Sequence record: OR466728.1
Reading direction: 5' to 3' (one strand)
Length of the DNA: 48,315 nt
Source: Escherichia phage ES
Numbering within the stretch: the stretch's first letter is position 1; the number at the start of each line of letters is the position of its first letter. Under the pieces are notes generated by a model. It was not told the DNA's origin. It did not search any database and saw nothing but the letters and a program-made list of their open reading frames with translations. Position numbers and translations under genes: made by a program. Shown here in pieces: positions 7,877 through 33,506 of the stretch.

Positions 7877-7904
7877 TTGCTACACCTGAAAACTCGTGTA
7901 TAAT
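7877..7904 (+). promoter_or_regulatory. sigma70-type promoter (TTGCTA -16 nt- TATAAT) for the capsid gene
   Basis: near-consensus -35 and perfect -10 with 16-nt spacer, 38 nt upstream of ATG 7942. Confidence 0.5.
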
Positions 7905-7941: not shown

Positions 7942-8886
7942 ATGGCTATTAAGTTTGACGCTGAACAAGCGAAAATCACTGCTCACCTAGAGCAGATGGG
8001 CGTAGATAAAGCTGACGCCGCTGGCATCTGGACCGTCAAGCAACTGACACAGACCCTGAAGCGCAACTACGAGCGTGAATATACCGACAACTCTGTTGTT
8101 AATATCTTCCCGATCAGTAACGAAATCCCTGCTTCTGCTAAATACTTCGAGTACCCAGAATTCGATGGCGTTTCAATCGCTCAGATTATCGCAGACTACT
8201 CCGATGACCTGCCGCTTGTTGACGCGTTCATGACTGAGAAACAAGGTAAAGTGTTCCGCTTCGGTAACGCATTCCTGATCTCCATCGATGAAATCGCAGC
8301 TGGTGCAGCAACTGGTCAATCTCTGTCTGCTCGTAAACAGGCTCTGGCTTTTGAAGCTCACGACAACCTGCTTGACAAACTGGTATGGTTTGGCTCTGCT
8401 CCGCACGGTATTAACAGCGTATTTAATACCCCCAACGCAAGCCGCGTAACCCCGAACGCATGGGTTGATGCCGCTGCTGCTGTTAACGATATCACTCGAA
8501 TGATTGATGCTATCGAAACTAACACGCAGGGTATGCATACTGCTACTGATATCATTCTGCCAGCCTCCGCTCGCCGCTTGATGCAGCAACTGGTTCCTGG
8601 TACTACGATTAGCTATGCTCAGCTGTTCGCAACTAACAATACCAGCGTAAATATTCGCTATTTGCAGTTCCTGGACGATATTGATGGCGCTGGCACTAAA
8701 GCAGCTCTGGCGTTTGAAAAAGACCCGCTGAACATGAGTATTGAAATTCCTGAGGCAACCCACGTATTGCCGGGTCAGCCGAAAGATTTGCATTTCAAAT
8801 ACCCTGTTACTTCCAAGTCTACAGGTCTGGTTGTTTACCGACCTCTGACTCTTGCTATCATGTCTGGCATCGAAATTACCGCATAA
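7942..8886 (+). CDS. major capsid protein (putative)
   Basis: 314 aa, own strong promoter and terminator, RBS AAAGGAAG, position in head module. Confidence 0.6.
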   Translation: MAIKFDAEQAKITAHLEQMGVDKADAAGIWTVKQLTQTLKRNYEREYTDNSVVNIFPISNEIPASAKYFEYPEFDGVSIAQIIADYSDDLPLVDAFMTEKQGKVFRFGNAFLISIDEIAAGAATGQSLSARKQALAFEAHDNLLDKLVWFGSAPHGINSVFNTPNASRVTPNAWVDAAAAVNDITRMIDAIETNTQGMHTATDIILPASARRLMQQLVPGTTISYAQLFATNNTSVNIRYLQFLDDIDGAGTKAALAFEKDPLNMSIEIPEATHVLPGQPKDLHFKYPVTSKSTGLVVYRPLTLAIMSGIEITA

Positions 8887-26176: not shown

Positions 26177-26199
26177 AAGCCCCTTTCGGGGCTTTTTTT
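26177..26199. terminator. bidirectional terminator
   Basis: AAGCCCC/GGGGCTT stem flanked by A-run upstream and T-run downstream, between convergent genes. Confidence 0.6.
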
Positions 26200-28732
26200 A
26201 TGCGAGAGAAACTCTTGAATTTGCAAATATCATGGCATCCCTTTGGTTATCAAACTGCACAACAAAGTAATCAGCAAGACTTAACACCATACCAGTTAGT
26301 CCATCAAGGTTGATATGCAGGTTTGCAGTGCCAGATACTGAAGCCTGAGCAACTCCAAATGTATGAACCCACTTACCGCCCTCAGTGAACACTTTCCCTA
26401 AAGATGCAGTACCAAAAATACTGATAGCACCATCTGCACCACCTTGAATCCTGTTTGCAGAGATACCCCAAACGTACCATTTGCCGGAAGTTATATTAAA
26501 GCCACCATTTATCAATTCGTACTGAGCCGCACCAGCCAATTCGTAGTATCCAGATGATTGCGAGTGTATACCCCTTGTATCAGAACCTTCACTTGCCGAC
26601 CCTGTTCCACCAAAGTTGTTCCCACCAGTACCAAAAGGCCTCCTGACTAAAACAGTTCCGGAATCGGGATTAAAAACTCGACCCTTAGTAACATATCCTC
26701 TAACAGATAAGTCAGATGTACCCGTTATCTTGGCTGTCTGTGATACCAGTGACTCAACTATAACGTTTGATGTTGAAGAGCCATTCAGGTATGCATCCTT
26801 AGCAAAAATAATACTGTTCGAATCAAGAGAGAAACTTTGATGCCCATCAGCGTTATCAAACCTGCAACCGTAAGTAACAAGGTTTGAGTTAGACAACTCA
26901 ATGTTATTAATGTAGGAGTGCTCAGCAAAGAAAACAGACGTATCAATAAGCTTCAAAACCCTTGGTAGCTCAGCACCCTCACCTACGTTAATTGCCCCAC
27001 CAGTCGCTATTGCTTCAAACCATACATTTGACAAACCACAAGGCGAGGTCGGGCAATCTCCAGGTTTATTCTTTAACCTTATACCACCTCCAGCAGAGGC
27101 CTCCATTATTGAATCCCTAATCCACCATCCACCAATCCCTCCAGCACCAGGGTTAGTTGCACTACTTGTGCTTGTCGCATCTAGCATTACTGAATATTGA
27201 GAGATTGTATCTGAGTGGTACCCGTATAAAGTGTCCGCTCCTATATGCATTTCGTCATGAGCTTTGGCTCGATACCCGTAATTCGCATTTCTAATACTTA
27301 CGTTTCTGTAGGTATTTCCAATGTTGCCAGCATTTTTCCTTATACCAACATCCAGGTCATTGAAGTAAAGCCTATCCAATACAACCCTTCCAGCATAAGG
27401 GTCATCCGGGAATTGAAAGCCGTTATTACCTTGTATTGCAGTACCTGTAAACTGCAAATCCGATAAATGCTTTTGCCTCCAGTGCGGAACCGATAGCGTT
27501 GAGGTGAGTCCGGTTTCAAAAGGTTTAACACTTATTACGGTATTATATCCAGAGCCTGATATGTTCCTGCCAGCAAAGGAGTAGTTATTACTCTCATAAG
27601 TTCCCGGGCTTATAACTACCGACCCGCCATCGCCAGCGGCTTCTATTGCTGAAGATATTGAGCCGCTATAGCTTGATGTGCTTTTTGAATCTGTATTTAA
27701 AATTGATGACACCTCACCCTTTGAGTAAACATCAAGGTTGGTTCTTGCCACGGACTTATCTGCAATGTCTGAAAGATTCAATGATTTTTGAAACGTCTCG
27801 GATTTTGAGTAAACATCAAGCAACCCCCTAACCCTTGACGCGCTTGATCCACCAGTTGCAGCATCACCGCCAGGCAAGCTTAGTACTTCCCTTACATAAA
27901 AAACCCTAGATCCAGTCGCACCAGAAATTGTGACATCTGCAATCCTAAAATTTGAGTTTGACCCAGTAGACGGAGATAACCTTAATACTTTAGCCGAATT
28001 AACACCCCTAGTTGCAATAACATCAATACAAATAGGAGTTGTTGAAACCGGAAACATTGAACTAATTTCTTTTGGGGTGTTTAACATATTCCCAGGTGTG
28101 CACTGATAACGACCTCCGGAATAAAATTGCATTGTTTGCCAATCTAAAGAGGTAAGTAATGGCGTTGTCGTGCTACCTATTCCGTGATTAGCAAAGTAAG
28201 CAACAGCCGCTGTATTTCCAGCCGCATTTATTGCTTCAACCGTCCTGTTATATGAATTTTGTGCGTTAGTGCTTGCACCAACTGCGGTCGCTGCACTTTC
28301 AGCAGCAGCAATCTGACTAGCTAACGCCTCCGCAGCTCCGGTAGTTGACTGAGTTGCCAGTTGTTCAAAACGAGGCCAATCAAAAGTATCTTGACCAATA
28401 AATTGCAGTAGACTTTCAATAGAAGTCTCTTTTGACTGGTAGTAACGCAATGTTTCCGCAACATCCTGTGCCAACCCCTGAACAGTAATTCCATCATGAG
28501 CAAGAATTGCGTAACCAGTACCAGCGGGAACAGTTTCAGAACTTGGATTATAAACATTAACCTGAGTATCGCTGATGATTTCAGAGATGGTGTAAATTTT
28601 CAGAGGGCTGGTTTTGAAAATGATAGTAGCACCTACACGAATCAGCGTAAGCGGCGCTTTCCATGTTGTACCGACACCAGTTACCTCTCCATTCGCGGCC
28701 AGTGACGCTGTTCCTAAGTCATAAATTGCCAT
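26198..28732 (-). CDS. tail fibre / tailspike-like protein
   Basis: 844 aa from ATG 28732 (RBS GGAGA; ORF-track start 28762 is GTG); Gly/Ser/Thr/Asn-rich repetitive beta-type composition. Confidence 0.5.
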   Translation of the reverse strand: MAIYDLGTASLAANGEVTGVGTTWKAPLTLIRVGATIIFKTSPLKIYTISEIISDTQVNVYNPSSETVPAGTGYAILAHDGITVQGLAQDVAETLRYYQSKETSIESLLQFIGQDTFDWPRFEQLATQSTTGAAEALASQIAAAESAATAVGASTNAQNSYNRTVEAINAAGNTAAVAYFANHGIGSTTTPLLTSLDWQTMQFYSGGRYQCTPGNMLNTPKEISSMFPVSTTPICIDVIATRGVNSAKVLRLSPSTGSNSNFRIADVTISGATGSRVFYVREVLSLPGGDAATGGSSASRVRGLLDVYSKSETFQKSLNLSDIADKSVARTNLDVYSKGEVSSILNTDSKSTSSYSGSISSAIEAAGDGGSVVISPGTYESNNYSFAGRNISGSGYNTVISVKPFETGLTSTLSVPHWRQKHLSDLQFTGTAIQGNNGFQFPDDPYAGRVVLDRLYFNDLDVGIRKNAGNIGNTYRNVSIRNANYGYRAKAHDEMHIGADTLYGYHSDTISQYSVMLDATSTSSATNPGAGGIGGWWIRDSIMEASAGGGIRLKNKPGDCPTSPCGLSNVWFEAIATGGAINVGEGAELPRVLKLIDTSVFFAEHSYINNIELSNSNLVTYGCRFDNADGHQSFSLDSNSIIFAKDAYLNGSSTSNVIVESLVSQTAKITGTSDLSVRGYVTKGRVFNPDSGTVLVRRPFGTGGNNFGGTGSASEGSDTRGIHSQSSGYYELAGAAQYELINGGFNITSGKWYVWGISANRIQGGADGAISIFGTASLGKVFTEGGKWVHTFGVAQASVSGTANLHINLDGLTGMVLSLADYFVVQFDNQRDAMIFANSRVSLA

Positions 28733-28756
28733 TGTGTAAAGTCTCCATTTGTAAAA

Positions 28757-28774
28757 TAGCACGAATTGCTAAAG
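28757..28774 (+). promoter_or_regulatory. dyad box copy 6, orphan (plus orientation between two minus-strand genes)
   Basis: exact TAGCACGAATTGCTAAAG; no plus-strand gene or good -10 downstream; overlaps 5' leader of the tail fibre gene. Confidence 0.4.
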
Positions 28775-28797
28775 TTGATTGTAGCATCTTTGAGTCA

Positions 28798-28819
28798 TAA
28801 AAAAACCTCCCTTAGGAGG
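28798..28819 (-). terminator. rho-independent terminator (minus strand) after primase
   Basis: CCTCC/GGAGG stem, CTTA loop, 8 A on plus strand (T-run on minus). Confidence 0.55.
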
Positions 28820-29743
28820 TTAGTCTAGCAATTCGCTTGCCTTGTATATTCGCTTTCTTATGCCTGACTTGAAAAAATTATCATCATTTGGCATTACCAC
28901 ATCAAGATCGCGATCGTCAGCAACGGCGAGTAAATCAAAAGCGTGGCGAGTGCAAGCGATGCGTAACTTGTATTTTCTAAGCGCGTAAGCAACCATTTCC
29001 ATGTTGTAGCTGGAGTAGCAAACAATCACGCAGCGGTTGCCAGTAGCAAGATGAACGCGAATACCATCAATCCAATTATCGACAAGATAAGCGTACTCAT
29101 CATCTTTAAGGGAGCCAATAACAGACACTGACTGTCGAGTATAATCTTTTGCAGCATAGCTAACATCTCCTTCCTCATTGATAAACATTACATTGCACAT
29201 TTCTTCTGATATGCCGTCACTATAAGCCATAAAGCACGGGACAGCATGGATTAATTCACCTGATTTTGTTCTACCAACATCAAATCCAAACTCGCTATAA
29301 ATACCCTCGTATGTACTGAGTGGAGTTGATTCTACTCTTTCCGTCCTTTCCATTATCTCCAGGCATCTTTCGTGGTCAATCTGTGCTCCCATTTTGTAGA
29401 GCTGGGCTCTTGATGCTTGCTTGTTTGCCTTGTTAACAACTTCAACCGGGATGAGGTTCAGCCACTCACCTAGAGTGTCAATACATTCACTGAATGACTC
29501 ACCCCGCATCTTCATGACCCAAATAATCCCATCACCTGACCCGCACTGGTTGCAGATAATCCCACCGTCACCATCCTCACTAACCTTGTTTGTCCAGCGA
29601 GCGCGGTCAACTCCTCCACAATAAATACATGGCTTATGCTTTTTTGTCTGGAAGAATTTTGGGTCTGCGCCGCAAATGTTTATAAGCGCCTTATCCCACA
29701 GTCCGCGCATTCTTGGTAAAACTTCTTTCTTGTCGTAGTGCAT
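28820..29743 (-). CDS. DNA primase (zinc-ribbon type, putative)
   Basis: 307 aa; N-terminal CIYCGG...CNQCG zinc-binding motif; adjacent to helicase region. Confidence 0.55.
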   Translation of the reverse strand: MHYDKKEVLPRMRGLWDKALINICGADPKFFQTKKHKPCIYCGGVDRARWTNKVSEDGDGGIICNQCGSGDGIIWVMKMRGESFSECIDTLGEWLNLIPVEVVNKANKQASRAQLYKMGAQIDHERCLEIMERTERVESTPLSTYEGIYSEFGFDVGRTKSGELIHAVPCFMAYSDGISEEMCNVMFINEEGDVSYAAKDYTRQSVSVIGSLKDDEYAYLVDNWIDGIRVHLATGNRCVIVCYSSYNMEMVAYALRKYKLRIACTRHAFDLLAVADDRDLDVVMPNDDNFFKSGIRKRIYKASELLD

Positions 29744-29764
29744 ATCAATCTACCTCTTAACAAA

Positions 29765-29795
29765 TAAAAAAGGATGTACCGATTATGGCACATCC
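29765..29795 (-). terminator. hairpin plus T-run (minus strand) after HTH gene
   Basis: GGATGT/ACATCC stem with 12-nt loop, 6 A on plus strand (T-run on minus). Confidence 0.35.
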
Positions 29796-29801
29796 AATCC
29801 T

Positions 29802-30275
29802 TTACTCTTTAGCTTTTCGTGCTGCTTCGTTAGCGGCCTTAATCTTGCGCCATGATCGACACTCTGGCTTGGTGGCTAGCTCTGCTTCAGTAACTACGCG
29901 AAGCATATGACGCTTCTTACATCGAAGTGTTAGCGGCTTACCGTTTCCGTCGAATTGCAGGTCTGGTCGGCAGAACGTAGCTCGAAATCCTTCCTTATTT
30001 CTCTTATACGCATTGTGAGCTTTCTGCGCTCCTCGAGCCGAAATCATCCCGCGATCAAACCATTGCTCTACAGTCTGGTGAGATACGTTTAACTGCTTTG
30101 CGATGTTCGCCTTTGTTCCATAGAAATCAAGAACCATCTCCAGGCGAGCACGTAGCCCAGCCTTTACCTCATCTTTCAATACGTAGTAGCCTGACGGTCG
30201 TTTGCGTTGCTTCTTGTCTTGTGTGCGTACCGTTCCGTTATTGCCGTTAATAGTTCGTTTGTCAATTTCACACAT
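29802..30275 (-). CDS. HTH DNA-binding protein (candidate transcription regulator)
   Basis: 157 aa, basic, HTH-like GTKANIAKQLNVSHQTVEQWFDRG; RBS GAGG; a dyad box overlaps its 5' region. Confidence 0.5.
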   Translation of the reverse strand: MCEIDKRTINGNNGTVRTQDKKQRKRPSGYYVLKDEVKAGLRARLEMVLDFYGTKANIAKQLNVSHQTVEQWFDRGMISARGAQKAHNAYKRNKEGFRATFCRPDLQFDGNGKPLTLRCKKRHMLRVVTEAELATKPECRSWRKIKAANEAARKAKE

Positions 30276-30288
30276 CTCATTACCTCAA

Positions 30289-30306
30289 TAGCACTTTTTG
30301 TTAAAC
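30289..30306 (+). promoter_or_regulatory. dyad box copy 7 (TAGCACTTTTTGTTAAAC) in divergent region
   Basis: TATTAT about 21-22 nt downstream; helicase ATG 83 nt downstream; 14 nt from the ATG of the divergent HTH gene. Confidence 0.5.
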
Positions 30307-30371
30307 AATAGGTTCGATAATTGATATTATACAGCAATGCAACGAACTAACAAACTGTCAGGATACTTAAA

Positions 30372-33300
30372 ATGCTTCCAGTAGAGCGCTTAGTGGCAAA
30401 CTTTGATCAAGAGAAAATCAAACAGATTCAGAAAGATTACCAGTTTGGAGACATAACTCCTTACGAATTCCAGTGTGTAACATTTGACGCAATTGGTAAG
30501 GCTATTGGTAAGTACGAGGCTCCATTCATCGCAGACCTGTCTGTATCTGCTGGTAAAACAATAATTCTTGCCATGATTGGGAAAAGAATGGAGCAACTTG
30601 GACTTCCTTATATGGTACTGTCTCGCCAGTCAGAGATTATCAGCCAGAACGCAGAGGAACTCCGTAACTTCGGTATCCGTAATAGCGTCTATTGCGCTGG
30701 ACTTAACGTTAAATCAGTTTACTACCCAACCATAGTGGCTAGTGAGGGTACAGCTGCCAATGGCCTGTTTAAGGGGCTTGGTGACTATGTTCCTGCTGTT
30801 ATCGCGATAGATGAGTGCTTAACTGGAGACACGATGATAACCACCGATTCAGGGATGATGAGGATTGATAGCGAAGACCTTATCAATCATAAAATAAAAT
30901 GCATAAACGAAAGCACTGGTGATTACTTCTATCATAAGCCAAAAAGAGTTTTTACTAATGGTGTAAGACATGTATCATCAATTAAATTAGAAAGCGGAGA
31001 GGAAATAAAATGCACGAGTACACACAAACTTTATTCGAACGGCTGCTGGGTAGGAGCGGGAAAACTTCGTATTGGGATGAATCTGTCGCTAGACGGCTCG
31101 CAGGACAAATTTACGAAAAAGCTCCTGCGTGCAAGTGTGGCTGTGGTGAAAAAGTTATGCCGCATTCAAGCAAGGGGTTAGGCGTACTTCTTAAGAACCC
31201 TTTCGATTTCTATTTGGATTACAGAACGGGGCATCATAATTCAACCGTCAACCCATCAATGGAGGTTGATGACTTTTTACATCAAAACATTCTTGCGGCA
31301 ATGGCTGGTGATGGTTGCTTGATTAAAAATACAGAAAAAGGAACGCATAGGCTATCTTGGAATATGGGAAATAAGGAGCACGCACTAAGCAAGGTTGAAA
31401 GGTTTGCAAAACTAAACCCTAGATACAGGGAGAAGAAAAACCCTGGATTTGGCGACAACTGGTTTTGCGTATCAACATCATGTACGAAAGTTCTGGATTC
31501 ATATGCTGATAAGTACGGAAATTCTAAGGATGGTTACGATATTGGAAAGATATGCAGAGAGCTTGATCCAGTTGGTTGGGCTGCTTACTTTGGTGATGAT
31601 GGTCATTGCACTGTAAGCTCAGGGAAGAGGGTTGTAGAAATCCACACCGAATCATTTAGCAGGCGTGAAGTTCAATCAGTAGTTGATGCGCTAATAGCAT
31701 TTATTGCTAATGACGGAGTTAATGTTAGAAGCTATATTGGCGGCAAGAAAAAGAGAGAGCTTTACTCAGTATCAATAACAACGAGGTCGGCACAAGATGA
31801 GTTTTTTAAGAGAATTAGTAAGCACATGGAAAATGGCGTGGAATACAAAATCAAGCAAAATTAAAGACATCTCACCCATTGGCAAGGAACTTGTTTGGGA
31901 TATAGAGATGCCTGAGCACCATAATTTCATTGCTGACGGGGTCGTGGCACATAATTGCCACATGGTGGACCATATGGATATCGTAGAAGCTGAAGAGAAT
32001 GAGGAAACATTCGAGCAGATGAGCACGAAGAAGGGTGAGATGGTCTTTAAGGATGGTGTGAATACCGGGCTTCTTGGCACTGGTCGCGCGCAATACACGT
32101 TAATCATTACCGAAATGAAGCGTCGATGCAAGGAGAAGTACGGTCGCGAACTTCGTATCTTTGGGTTAACTGGTAGCCCGTACCGTAACAACGACCACAT
32201 TGTAGTTAGTAACCCAAATGTCCGTGGATTCTGGCGCAAAACTGTAATGCAAGTGCCAACCAGCTACCTTGTTGACTTGGGGTTCGTTGTTCCTACTGTC
32301 TACGGTGAAGTTGGTGATTTGGGCTACGACCTTAGTGAGTTCACTCCTGATGGAAGTGATGGGGTTAAGGACTTCAGCAAGAAAGAAATGGATGCGATGG
32401 CTGCAAAGATTCACGAAAACCAAACGATGACACAAAAGATAATGGGATTTGCTGCTAGGTTTATGGAAACAAGGAATGCTGCATTGGTAACTTGCGCTGG
32501 CAAACAGCATTGCGAGGAGGCGGCAGCCGCACTTCCAGAAGGTGTTACTTGGGCGATAGTTACCAACTCCACTGGTGATAAGAAGCGTAGAGAGATACTT
32601 GAGAAGGCAGCCAGCGGAGAATATAAGTTCATATTTCAGATTGGTTGCCTCACAACTGGCGTAAACTGCCCCCCGTGGGATACAAGCATTATCCTGAGGA
32701 AGGTTGGTAGCATTACTCTACTCATTCAGTTGCTTGGTCGTGGTATGCGTATCCTTAAGAAGAAGCACAAAGAAGCTGGAATGGTAAAAGATGACCATGT
32801 TGTTCTTGATTTTGCCGGGACGCTTGACGATATGGCAGAACTCTACTTCGACCCAATTATAGAAGAGGTTCAGGACCAGAAGTTTAAGTCATCCAGGAAA
32901 GGGGGTGATGAACCAAGAATTTGCCCAGCATGTTCTTATGAGAATTCTCCTTTCGCACGGCGCTGTAATAATGTGATTGACGGTAAACGATGCGAGCATT
33001 TTTTTCAGTTCCGTCTTTGCGAAGATATTGAGGACCCGCAGACGAAAGTTATCGTTAAGAAAGGTTGCGGAGAGAAAAATGACGTTGCAGCAAAGAACTG
33101 CCGCTGCTGCGGAGAGATGCTGATAGACCCAAATGCAAAGCTATCTGGAAAAATGTATCGGAAAGGGGACTGGTTGAGAGTTTATGACTTCAAGATTGGG
33201 TTGACAAAAAACCAGTCAGGGATCGTTGCTTCATATGAGGTAATGGCTCATAGTGGAGATAAGTTCCGAGCTTATGAAACATTCTTCCCGGAGTCAGACC

Positions 33301-33506
33301 ATCGTGTTTGTTCTGTCAAATGGAAGGCGTTTTGCTCAACTCACATCGAGAACAGGACTGAGGCTTTTAGGATTGGCAGATTGCGTAATGCTAAAATGAT
33401 TATGACAAATGCACATCTTTTCCGTGCGCCGCTAAGGATTACGCACCGCAAGAATCAGAAGTCGCAAGATATTATCGCCAACAAATCATTTACGATGGAG
33501 GATTGA
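30372..33506 (+). CDS. SF2 DExH-box DNA helicase, interrupted by an intein (exteins 30372-30815 and 31956-33506)
   Basis: Walker A SVSAGKT; motif II DE|CH restored on excision; three track ORFs (30372, 31010, 31797) belong to one gene. Confidence 0.75.
30816..31955 (+). mobile_element. intein with LAGLIDADG homing-endonuclease domain (1140 nt, 380 codons)
   Basis: starts CLTGDTMI, block B TSTHKL, LAGLIDADG-like ILAAMAGDGCL and AAYFGDDGHC, ends NFIADGVVAHN before +1 Cys; endonuclease domain is in a different frame. Confidence 0.8.

What the first reader, a model, noticed from the sequence alone, without database searches (positions are those of the whole stretch)
28757..28774. Orphan plus-oriented dyad box between two minus-strand genes
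This exact copy sits 25 nt upstream of the tail-fibre ATG (28732) but in the opposite orientation, with no plus-strand gene and only a weak -10 downstream. Because the core dyad is symmetric, a dimeric factor could still bind. Here it would overlap the tail-fibre 5' leader, so it might repress, or drive an antisense transcript into the primase 3' end.
Basis: inference. Interest (0 to 1): 0.4.

Follow-up and report, generated by a model that had tools for sequence, protein, structure and literature searches.

The report
Reversed regulator box over tail-fibre promoter
One copy of a T1-like phage's repeated promoter box sits backwards on the predicted start of the tail-fibre transcript, where it most likely acts as an off-switch rather than a promoter; this is a small new detail in a repeat family that is already known.

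Summary
The window is Escherichia phage AN_ECEAS, an Rtp-like member of the Drexlerviridae. The box TAGCACGAATTGCTAAAG is exactly at 28757-28774 (+). It belongs to a highly non-random family: 13 copies within 3 mismatches against 0.05 expected.

The other copies are promoter parts. In 37 of 40 cases across AN_ECEAS, Rtp and T1, a -10 hexamer lies exactly 19 nt after the box. That puts the dyad centre at -42, with no -35 element, which is activator geometry.

The flagged copy is the exception. It faces away from both neighbouring genes and has GTCATA where the -10 should be.

On the minus strand it reads: primase terminator, extended -10 TGcTACAAT (28786-28778), 6 nt, dyad (28771-28757), GGAG, ATG (28732).

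In 24 related tail-fibre upstream regions from Rtp-like and T1-like phages, the promoter elements and the dyad are conserved while the spacers vary. The dyad always starts 6-7 nt after the -10, at about +1 to +15.

Best reading (confidence 0.5): it is an operator through which the phage's HTH regulator (29802-30275) represses an activator-independent tail-fibre promoter. The antisense-promoter idea is not supported.

The repeat family was already reported for T1 and Stevie (and, from memory, Rtp) with its role unknown. This site's role is inferred, not shown.

The parts
28757..28774 (+). The flagged box TAGCACGAATTGCTAAAG. It is an exact copy of the window's commonest promoter box, but oriented away from both flanking genes.
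28757..28771 (.). Dyad core TAGCA-N5-TGCTA, the presumed binding site for a dimeric protein. On the minus strand it covers about +1 to +15 of the tail-fibre promoter.
   Evidence: Half-sites are conserved in 22 of 24 related upstream regions, with single uncompensated mismatches in L018 and L032. The box tail AAAG is not conserved at this site.
28778..28786 (-). Extended -10 element TGcTACAAT of the predicted tail-fibre promoter. It is an activator-independent sigma-70 type with no -35 element.
   Evidence: TG.TACAAT is invariant in 9 distinct Rtp-like sequences while the middle base and both flanks vary. T1-like phages have TTGCAA-17-TGaTAAAAT at the same place.
28770..28771 (-). Predicted transcription start of the tail-fibre mRNA, 7-8 nt after the -10 hexamer. 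This is inferred, not mapped.
   Evidence: Geometry, plus the usual distance between -10 and start site (established knowledge).
28743..28746 (-). Shine-Dalgarno sequence GGAG of the tail-fibre gene, 10 nt before the ATG at 28732.
26198..28732 (-). Tail-fibre gene (844 aa from the ATG at 28732).
28797..28821 (-). Intrinsic terminator ending the regulator-primase transcripts: stem-loop 28821-28804 plus T-run 28803-28797. It lies directly upstream of the tail-fibre promoter.
   Evidence: It is annotated as a terminator in SU57.
28820..29743 (-). DNA primase gene.
29802..30275 (-). Candidate box-binding protein: a 157-aa HTH regulator, homologue of Rtp52 and T1 gp23, with a Cro-like core.
   Evidence: phrog_2856 at 8e-84 and a sub-threshold P22_Cro hit. 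Model pLDDT is 87.6, and TM-score normalised to target length is 0.70-0.72 to Xfaso1 Cro. Homologues are present in 824 phage records. The rtp52 RefSeq note predicts an HTH at residues 53-74.
30326..30353 (-). The regulator gene's own sigma-70 promoter, TTGTTA-16-TATAAT. It has a -35 element and no box upstream.
   Evidence: BPROM annotated a promoter at the same place in SU57.
30289..30306 (+). Variant box TAGCACTTTTTGTTAAAC of the divergent helicase promoter. The same dyad lies in the regulator mRNA leader, 2 nt before its Shine-Dalgarno sequence. It is the only other reversed-in-a-leader copy in the window.

Best explanation
The box is an operator on the tail-fibre gene's own promoter.

The tail-fibre gene sits just after the primase terminator and has an activator-independent sigma-70 promoter, the extended -10 TGcTACAAT at 28786-28778. 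The dyad TAGCA-N5-TGCTA begins 6 nt after that -10, so it covers about +1 to +15.

The protein that binds the same dyad at about 18 canonical promoters in this genome is most likely the Cro-like HTH regulator encoded two genes upstream (29802-30275). At those promoters the dyad centre is at -42 and there is no -35 element, which is activator geometry. Bound at the tail-fibre site, the protein would lie inside the RNA polymerase footprint. It would block polymerase binding or promoter escape and so lower tail-fibre transcription once regulator has accumulated.

The regulator would then be a dual activator and repressor, as lambda cI is at OR.

What the sequence shows: the architecture, its conservation, and the lack of a plus-strand promoter.

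What is inferred: the transcription start, which protein binds, the sign of the effect, and any timing role.
For: 1. Canonical boxes have a rigid promoter geometry. 37 of 40 boxes in AN_ECEAS, Rtp and T1 have a -10 hexamer (at least 4 of 6 matches, with A at position 2 and T at position 6) exactly 19 nt after the 18-mer. No conserved -35 is present, and the dyad centre falls at -42. The orphan fails this test (GTCATA).

2. Phylogenetic footprint in Rtp-like phages. In 10 upstream regions (9 distinct), TG.TACAAT and TA.CAATT.GTGCTA are invariant. The 13 columns before the TG and 5 of the 6 bases between the -10 and the dyad vary. SU57 shows the same arrangement.

3. Phylogenetic footprint in T1-like phages. 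In 14 upstream regions (13 distinct), the promoter TTGCAA-17-TGaTAAAAT is followed after 7 variable bases by the same dyad. The -35, -10 and dyad are conserved, and the spacers vary. Two different promoter types therefore carry the dyad in the same place.

4. The promoter exists without the dyad. Every Drexlerviridae lineage examined has a sigma-70-type promoter right after the primase terminator. Stevie-type, damhaus-type and Vc1 phages lack the dyad. So the promoter does not depend on the box, and the box is an add-on.

5. At the orphan only the dyad is conserved. The promoter-side tail AAAG decays to AAGT, AATT, AAGG or AGC.

6. The 101-nt intergenic stretch is at least 90% identical in 78 of 99 phage records. 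The surrounding 3 kb is mostly 80-90% identical.

7. There is a parallel site. In 7 genera the regulator gene has a full -35/-10 promoter and the same dyad reversed in its leader, 2-4 nt before its Shine-Dalgarno sequence. T1-like phages also carry a dyad filling the 16-nt spacer of a consensus major-capsid promoter, conserved in 17 contigs. The variable positions of these reversed sites fit repression, not stereospecific activation.

8. The regulator has a Cro-like HTH core.
Against: - There are no experimental data. No transcription start, footprint or expression measurement for any T1-like phage was found in the paper library.
- TGNTACAAT alone is not rare: 3 copies in the window against 2.25 expected. 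The promoter call rests on conservation.
- Repressing a structural gene with a protein made early is biologically awkward, and the timing logic is unexplained. The AN_ECEAS major-capsid promoter (7877-7904) has no dyad.
- The link between regulator and box is circumstantial. A regulator only 47% identical, with a different recognition helix (Vibrio phage Vc1), goes with the same box. No covariation supports the pairing.
- A hairpin at the very 5' end of the mRNA is an alternative reason for a dyad at +1.
Confidence: 0.5

Rival explanations
1. RNA-level role. Because the dyad starts at about +1, the tail-fibre mRNA would begin with a 5-bp stem-loop (UAGCA-AUUCG-UGCUA). That could protect the transcript from 5'-end-dependent decay or tune translation. 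On this view the DNA-binding protein is irrelevant at this site.
For: The dyad begins 6-7 nt after the -10 in all 24 sequences that carry it, which places it at the extreme 5' end where such hairpins work. The isolated dyad folds at -3.0 kcal/mol, z = -3.9 against shuffles.
Against: - The hairpin is weak and is not part of the minimum-free-energy fold of the leader.
- The leaders are no more structured than shuffles: z = +1.3 for the window and +0.1 for T1.
- The sequence is identical to the protein-box consensus, loop included, in two subfamilies.
- The only two half-site changes seen (L018 TATCA, L032 TACCA) are uncompensated.
- No Rfam family matches.
Confidence: 0.1
2. Positive control from a downstream site. 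The bound regulator helps the tail-fibre promoter, which lacks a -35 in Rtp-like phages. It might do so by recruiting polymerase, or by acting on a promoter-proximal pause at the -10-like TGcTATTTT inside the box.
For: The Rtp-like promoter has no -35 element. The same protein appears to activate about 18 other promoters. A tail-fibre gene would be expected to need late expression.
Against: - Extended -10 promoters do not need a -35 or an activator (established knowledge).
- The T1-like version has a near-consensus -35, a 17-nt spacer, a TG motif and a 5-of-6 -10, so it needs no help.
- Lineages without the dyad keep the promoter.
- The site is reversed and lies 50 bp from the position used at the activated promoters.
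- Activators bound at +8 are rare.
Confidence: 0.1
3. Antisense promoter. The box recruits polymerase in the plus direction and drives an RNA into the 3' end of primase.
For: The 18-mer is an exact copy of functional-looking boxes. TTGATT-17-TAAAAA can be read downstream.
Against: - The -10 hexamer at the obligatory 19-nt offset is GTCATA here, GGCATA in Rtp and TACCTG in T1. By contrast, 37 of 40 canonical boxes have a proper -10 there.
- Hexamers at nearby offsets lack the final T.
- The conserved leader CATCGAAAC, a ribosome-binding site and an ORF are all absent.
- The conserved bases downstream are accounted for by the minus-strand -10 and the terminator.
- The box tail that adjoins the promoter side is not conserved here.
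Confidence: 0.05
4. A bound site with a non-promoter role. It might be a roadblock that reinforces the primase terminator or stops stray polymerases. It might be a looping partner of the boxes at 29807 and 30289. It might simply be a sink that titrates the regulator.
For: The site lies 25 nt past the terminator T-run. Other boxes lie 1.0-1.5 kb away. The Stevie genome announcement compared the repeats with L5 stoperators.
Against: - The constant 6-7 nt distance to a conserved -10, in two promoter architectures, points to the promoter as the target.
- The canonical copies are tied to -10 elements and are not scattered inside transcription units like stoperators.
- No evidence of any kind supports looping.
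Confidence: 0.1
5. A functionless relic, for example of an inverted or decayed box promoter.
For: It lacks every downstream promoter feature of the family.
Against: The dyad is conserved in 24 upstream regions from two subfamilies while neighbouring bases vary. It is kept at a fixed distance from the -10.
Confidence: 0.03

Closest known systems
The 22-bp repeat of T1-like phages (consensus VWATAGCAYKWWTTGYTAAAAV). Stevie has 16 copies and T1 has 20 (PMC4319613). From memory and not verified here, Wietzorrek et al. 2006 (J Bacteriol 188:1419) reported 10 inverted repeats in Rtp and proposed them as Rtp52 sites.
   Same: It is the same sequence: the orphan matches 20 of 22 consensus positions and is identical to the window's own 18-mer. 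It is intergenic. The candidate binding protein, the Rtp52/gp23 homologue, is the same.
   Different: The published description says the repeats point with transcription and that their role is unknown. This copy points against transcription, lacks the -10 at 19 nt, and sits on the start of a separate sigma-70 promoter. I found no paper in the library describing this copy or the tail-fibre promoter. The SU57 paper even doubted that the gene is transcribed.
Lambda cI at OR, a dual activator and repressor
   Same: One dimeric HTH protein activates when its site is centred near -42 (OR2 for PRM) and represses when its site overlaps a core promoter (PR). It also controls its own gene. The fold of the regulator's core resembles Cro/cI-type HTH domains.
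   Different: These are virulent phages with no lysogeny switch. There are about 18 dispersed activation sites rather than one tripartite operator. There is no evidence of cooperativity. The regulator has extra conserved N- and C-terminal regions. Membership of the cI/Cro family is not established, because the Pfam hit is below threshold.
lac O1 and other operators placed just downstream of the start site
   Same: A dyad site lies within +1 to +20 of an otherwise competent sigma-70 promoter. The expected effect is steric interference with polymerase binding or promoter escape.
   Different: The protein is unrelated. The same site sequence is used elsewhere in the genome for activation. No inducer is known.
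Mycobacteriophage L5 stoperators (gp71), the analogy raised in PMC4319613
   Same: Many copies of one short site are spread through a phage genome, mostly intergenic, with an orientation bias.
   Different: The Drexlerviridae sites are dyads locked 19 nt from a -10 element (37 of 40). They are therefore promoter parts, not elongation blocks. The phages are virulent. The orphan overlaps a promoter rather than sitting inside a transcription unit.
Controller (C) proteins of restriction-modification systems, and phi29 p4
   Same: Small phage or mobile-element regulators switch between activating and repressing according to where their dyad lies relative to a promoter. C-proteins appear among the weak fold matches.
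   Different: The fold-search E-values are above 1 for C-proteins. The site architecture differs, with no paired OL/OR boxes.

Membership tests
Drexlerviridae promoter-associated 22-bp repeat (T1, Rtp, Stevie) | Sequence matches VWATAGCAYKWWTTGYTAAAAV | tested here: met
   28754-28775 reads AAATAGCACGAATTGCTAAAGT and matches 20 of 22 positions. The 18-mer is identical to 4 other copies in the window.
Drexlerviridae promoter-associated 22-bp repeat (T1, Rtp, Stevie) | Points in the direction of transcription of the adjacent gene | tested here: not met
   The box is on the + strand, and both flanking genes are on the - strand. The reversal is conserved in Rtp-like and T1-like relatives.
Drexlerviridae promoter-associated 22-bp repeat (T1, Rtp, Stevie) | A -10 hexamer exactly 19 nt after the 18-mer, then a leader (often CATCGAAAC), a ribosome-binding site and an ATG. 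This feature was derived here. | tested here: not met
   37 of 40 canonical copies have it. The orphan has GTCATA and no leader, ribosome-binding site or ORF.
Operator overlapping a sigma-70 promoter (negative control by occlusion) | The site lies within the polymerase footprint of a real promoter | tested here: inconclusive
   A conserved extended -10 lies 6 nt upstream. In T1-like phages a -35/-10 pair lies 7 nt upstream. The promoter is inferred from conservation, and no start site has been mapped.
Operator overlapping a sigma-70 promoter (negative control by occlusion) | A dyad suited to a dimeric DNA-binding protein encoded by the same genome | tested here: met
   TAGCA-N5-TGCTA is a perfect dyad. 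An HTH regulator with a Cro-like core is encoded at 29802-30275.
Operator overlapping a sigma-70 promoter (negative control by occlusion) | Protein binding and reduced transcription demonstrated | not testable with these tools
   Needs EMSA or footprinting, in vitro transcription or reporter assays.
Class II activator site (centre near -41.5/-42), read in the plus direction | A -10 element at the fixed distance, so that the dyad centre is at -42 | tested here: not met
   GTCATA lies at the required offset. Rtp has GGCATA and T1 has TACCTG.
L5-type stoperator | An asymmetric site inside transcription units that acts on elongation, independent of promoter elements | tested here: not met
   The sites are dyads and are locked to a -10 element in 37 of 40 cases. 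The orphan abuts a -10. Action on elongation itself is not testable here.
Cro/cI-type HTH proteins (for the candidate regulator) | Significant sequence or fold match to the family | tested here: inconclusive
   Pfam P22_Cro scores 23.2 bits against a cut-off of 30.2. The PDB profile search gives E = 0.006 to Xfaso1 Cro. Foldseek gives E = 0.04 and TM-score normalised to target length of 0.70-0.72, over about 62 of 157 residues only.

The most novel reading that the evidence does not exclude
One regulator, with about 18 activation-geometry sites and a few operator-geometry sites, works as a replication-coupled timer. The operator-geometry sites are on the tail-fibre promoter, on its own promoter, and in T1 on the major-capsid promoter.

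Early in infection the regulator switches on the -35-less box promoters and holds the consensus-type structural promoters off. As genome copies multiply, each bringing about 20 sites while the regulator limits its own synthesis, the free protein is titrated. The operator-controlled promoters, tail fibre included, are then released.

This would be a single-protein temporal programme without a sigma factor or a phage polymerase. It could explain the long-unexplained T1 repeats.
Probability: 0.12. Interest if true: 0.6.

Novelty: new member of a known kind. Interest (0 to 1): 0.33.

Why it matters
T1-like phages are common laboratory and fermentation contaminants and are candidates for phage therapy. 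Their transcription programme is nevertheless essentially uncharacterised, and the role of their roughly 20 repeats per genome is stated to be unknown (PMC4319613).

This analysis gives three testable statements:
- The repeats are the upstream half of -35-less promoters, with a fixed 19-nt spacing to the -10.
- The lateral tail-fibre gene has its own host-type promoter after the primase terminator. One published annotation doubted that the gene is transcribed at all.
- In Rtp-like and T1-like phages, a reversed copy of the repeat sits on that promoter's start site, which implies negative control by the same protein.

The tail-fibre gene is the part most often swapped when engineering host range. 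Knowing its promoter and operator therefore matters for anyone replacing it. The mechanism itself, a dual activator and repressor, is textbook.

Tried and rejected
- **Rtp genome paper.** I tried to read it by DOI and by PMC id, and it is not held. What I say about it is from memory.
- **Experimental data on T1-like phages.** I searched the library for start-site or transcriptome data and found none. The one Drexlerviridae hit reported RNA-seq for a T5-like phage only.
- **Antisense promoter.** Rejected on the -10 spacing test.
- **A plus-strand gene after the box.** Rejected. The only ORF is an antisense shadow of primase with a TTG start and no ribosome-binding site, and it is interrupted in most relatives.
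- **Known RNA element.** Rfam gave only one chance-level hit, 21.5 bits against a gathering score of 51.4.
- **Structured leader.** The folds are no better than shuffles.
- **Second half-box at 28826-28835 as a partner site or long-range stem.** It is a 10-nt perfect inverted repeat of the box. It lies in the last primase codons and is not conserved in relatives, so I treat it as coincidence.
- **TGCTA inside the extended -10 as an extra half-site.** The C varies to A in relatives, so I rejected this.
- **Covariation between regulator and box.** Vibrio phage Vc1 has a regulator only 47% identical with a different recognition helix, yet it uses the same box. The test is therefore uninformative.
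- **Host factor as the binder.** No E. coli regulator site that I know of matches TAGCA-N5-TGCTA. This is from memory and was not tested.
- **MerR-type activation from within a spacer, for the T1 capsid promoter.** The spacer is 16 nt, not overlong, so this is unlikely.

Full report
**Identity of the window.** The region 27500-30500 is 100% identical to Escherichia phage AN_ECEAS (PP944860; Drexlerviridae, Braunvirinae). It is 79-86% identical to Rtp-like phages. The flagged site lies between the tail-fibre gene (26198-28732, minus) and the primase gene (28820-29743, minus). A 157-aa HTH 'transcriptional regulator' (29802-30275, minus) lies upstream of primase. It is the homologue of Rtp52 and T1 gp23.

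**The observation.** The + strand at 28757-28774 reads TAGCACGAATTGCTAAAG. The 18-mer occurs 5 times exactly, and 13 times within 3 mismatches against 0.05 expected. The dyad core TAGCA-N5-TGCTA has 18 hits within 1 mismatch, against 2.25 expected.

**What the box family is.**
- Lining up the copies shows one fixed module: aaaTAGCAC-NNN-TTG(C/T)TAAA(G/C/A), then 19 nt, then a -10 hexamer, often CATCGAAAC, a ribosome-binding site and an ATG.
- I took 40 such copies from AN_ECEAS, Rtp and T1. In 37 of them a hexamer with at least 4 of 6 matches to TATAAT, including A2 and T6, lies exactly 19 nt after the 18-mer. Every other offset from 15 to 24 has 0-3.
- There is no conserved -35. With the -10 at -12 to -7, the dyad centre falls at -42.
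- This is the geometry of activator-dependent (class II) promoters. That reading is an inference from established knowledge. It is not a test.
- The family is already in the literature. [quoted passage not shown]
- From memory, the Rtp genome paper proposed such inverted repeats as Rtp52 sites. I could not retrieve that paper.

**Why the flagged copy is different.**
- It points away from both neighbouring genes.
- At the 19-nt offset it has GTCATA, and it has no leader motif, ribosome-binding site or ORF.
- Read on the minus strand, the intergenic region is: terminator stem-loop and T-run (28821-28797), ATGACTCAAAGA, TGcTACAAT (28786-28778), caactt, TAGCAATTCGTGCTA (28771-28757), ttttacaaat, GGAG, actttacaca, ATG (28732).
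- TGnTACAAT is an extended -10 element. The dyad begins 6 nt after it, so it covers roughly +1 to +15 of a transcript that starts there.

**Comparative test.**
- I collected the region upstream of the tail-fibre gene from 46 viral contigs, plus T1, Rtp, SU57, Stevie, damhaus and Vc1.
- Rtp-like phages (10 sequences, 9 distinct, including two with unrelated leaders): TG.TACAAT and TA.CAATT.GTGCTA are invariant. The 13 columns before the TG, the middle base of TGn, and 5 of the 6 bases between the -10 and the dyad all vary.
- T1-like phages (14 sequences, 13 distinct): the promoter is of a different type, TTGCAA-17 nt-TGaTAAAAT, followed after 7 variable bases by the same dyad. The -35, -10 and dyad are conserved while both spacers vary.
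- Other lineages (Stevie-type TTGCAT-17-CATAAT, damhaus-type TGcTATTAT, Vc1 TTGCCG-17-CATAAT) keep a sigma-70-type promoter at the same place but have no dyad.
- Three things follow. A host-type promoter directly after the primase terminator is a family-wide feature. The dyad is an add-on found in Braunvirinae and Tunavirinae. Where it is present, it is held at the start site.
- At this site only the dyad is conserved. The promoter-side tail AAAG drifts to AAGT, AATT, AAGG or AGC.
- The 101-nt intergenic stretch is at least 90% identical in 78 of 99 phage records. The flanking 3 kb is mostly 80-90% identical.

**Who binds.**
- The 157-aa protein has homologues in 824 phage records.
- Its model is confident (pLDDT 87.6). 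Residues of roughly 35-95 superpose on Cro proteins: Xfaso1 Cro with TM-score normalised to target length of 0.70-0.72, and N15 Cro with 0.70.
- Sequence matches to Cro are weak: E = 0.006 against PDB sequences, and the Pfam hit is below its cut-off.
- The protein also has an invariant basic N-terminal arm and a conserved C-terminal region.
- In seven genera its gene has a complete -35/-10 promoter, unlike the box promoters. The dyad of the divergent helicase promoter lies reversed in its leader, 2-4 nt before its Shine-Dalgarno sequence. This is the usual signature of an autoregulated DNA-binding protein.
- The link is still circumstantial. A regulator only 47% identical, with a different recognition helix (Vc1), goes with an identical box.

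**Mechanism proposed.**
- The regulator binds the dyad wherever it occurs.
- At -42 of -35-less promoters it activates.
- On the tail-fibre start site it lies inside the polymerase footprint of a promoter that needs no activator. There it should repress by occlusion or by blocking escape.
- Supporting parallels are the reversed dyad in the regulator's own leader, and a dyad in T1-like phages that fills the 16-nt spacer of a near-consensus major-capsid promoter, TTGAC(G/C)-16-TGcTATTAT, conserved in 17 contigs of two lineages.
- These reversed sites sit at different distances from their promoters. That fits repression and not stereospecific activation.
- Confidence is about 0.5. It is the product of three inferred steps: the promoter is real, the protein binds, and the effect is negative.

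**Rivals.**
- The antisense promoter fails the spacing test and has no independent conservation.
- A 5'-terminal RNA hairpin is possible but weak. It folds at -3.0 kcal/mol, is not part of the leader's best fold, and the leaders are no more structured than shuffles. The two half-site changes seen are uncompensated. No Rfam family matches.
- Activation from +8 is unlikely, because the T1-type promoter is already near consensus.
- A roadblock, looping or sink role cannot be excluded.
- A neutral relic is excluded by the conservation.

**Open problem.**
- It is unclear why a structural gene should be repressed by a protein made early.
- In AN_ECEAS the major-capsid promoter (TTGCTA-16-TATAAT, 7877-7904) has no dyad, so there is no general 'late genes are repressed' rule in this phage.
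- A titration timer, in which sites multiply with replication while the regulator limits itself, is a speculative way out. I give it 0.12.

**Novelty and verdict.**
- The repeat family and the candidate regulator are known.
- As far as the searchable literature shows, three points are new here: the rigid 19-nt promoter geometry, the tail-fibre promoter, and the reversed copy on its start site. The SU57 paper even doubted that the gene is transcribed, because of the terminator.
- The mechanism is a classic one.
- I rate this a new member of a known kind, of modest interest.

Noticed in passing
window 30289-30353, with equivalents in Rtp, T1, TSK1, Stevie, damhaus and AAS23: The regulator gene's sigma-70 promoter is TTGTTA-16-TATAAT, with its -10 at 30331-30326 on the minus strand. 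The divergent box promoter of the helicase gene has its -10 at about 30325-30330 on the plus strand. The two -10 hexamers overlap. The shared dyad lies 2-4 nt before the regulator's Shine-Dalgarno sequence in all 7 genera. This looks like a mutually exclusive switch combined with autoregulation.
   Followed up: partly
window: canonical promoters such as 24966, 33925, 44524 and 45200; also Rtp and T1: In 22 of 40 box promoters the stretch from box to leader folds much better than shuffles (z below -2, mean z -2.3). Often the -10 hexamer sits in the loop, and the arms differ between promoters (GGGGTA/TACCCC, AAGGCC/GGCCTT, GAGTTG/CAACTC). In other promoters a terminator-like hairpin fills the spacer. 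The structure is conserved and the sequence is not. Its function is unexplained.
   Followed up: partly
window 805, 11565, 30289, 36660 (+) and 42773 (-): A second sequence class of the box, TAGCACTTTTTG(T/C)TA, has the same 19-nt spacing to a -10. Four copies share an identical 15-mer.
   Followed up: partly
window 29772-29824 (-): The primase promoter uses a weak box, CAGCACGAAAAGCTAAAG, with 3 mismatches. That box also encodes the regulator's last codons. Its -10, CATAAT, lies in the loop of the terminator that follows the regulator gene. The box sequence is conserved in relatives.
   Followed up: partly
T1 (NC_005833) 15071, 18835 and 8363; loci L065-L082: T1-like phages carry further non-canonical boxes in front of late genes.
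- One fills the spacer of a near-consensus major-capsid promoter, TTGACG-16-TGcTATTAT. It is followed by a terminator-like hairpin in the leader and is conserved in 17 contigs.
- One lies before ST40.
- One abuts the ribosome-binding site of the small terminase gene.

   Followed up: partly
window 30372-33506 (+): The helicase gene is a single 1995-bp gene in Rtp. Here it is interrupted by an intein-like insert with a LAGLIDADG endonuclease, and it reads in three overlapping frames (30372-31181, 31010-31864, 31797-33506). This could be a decayed intein, a frameshifted assembly or a programmed arrangement. A box-like dyad, TAGCATTTATTGCTA, lies inside it at 31695.
   Followed up: partly
window 28762-28771 and 28826-28835: A 10-nt perfect inverted repeat (CGAATTGCTA / TAGCAATTCG) brackets the primase terminator and the tail-fibre promoter. 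The second arm is the last primase codons and is not conserved in relatives, so it is probably coincidence.
   Followed up: yes
window 7877-7904 (+): The major-capsid gene (7942-8886) is preceded by a plain sigma-70 promoter, TTGCTA-16-TATAAT, without a box. T1 instead has a dyad inside the equivalent promoter.
   Followed up: no
window: downstream of the -10 in most box promoters (e.g. 22834-, 33925+, 34179+, 42153-): The motif (t)CATCGAAAC is conserved at about +3 to +12 of the predicted transcripts, across AN_ECEAS, Rtp and T1. Its role is unknown.
   Followed up: no
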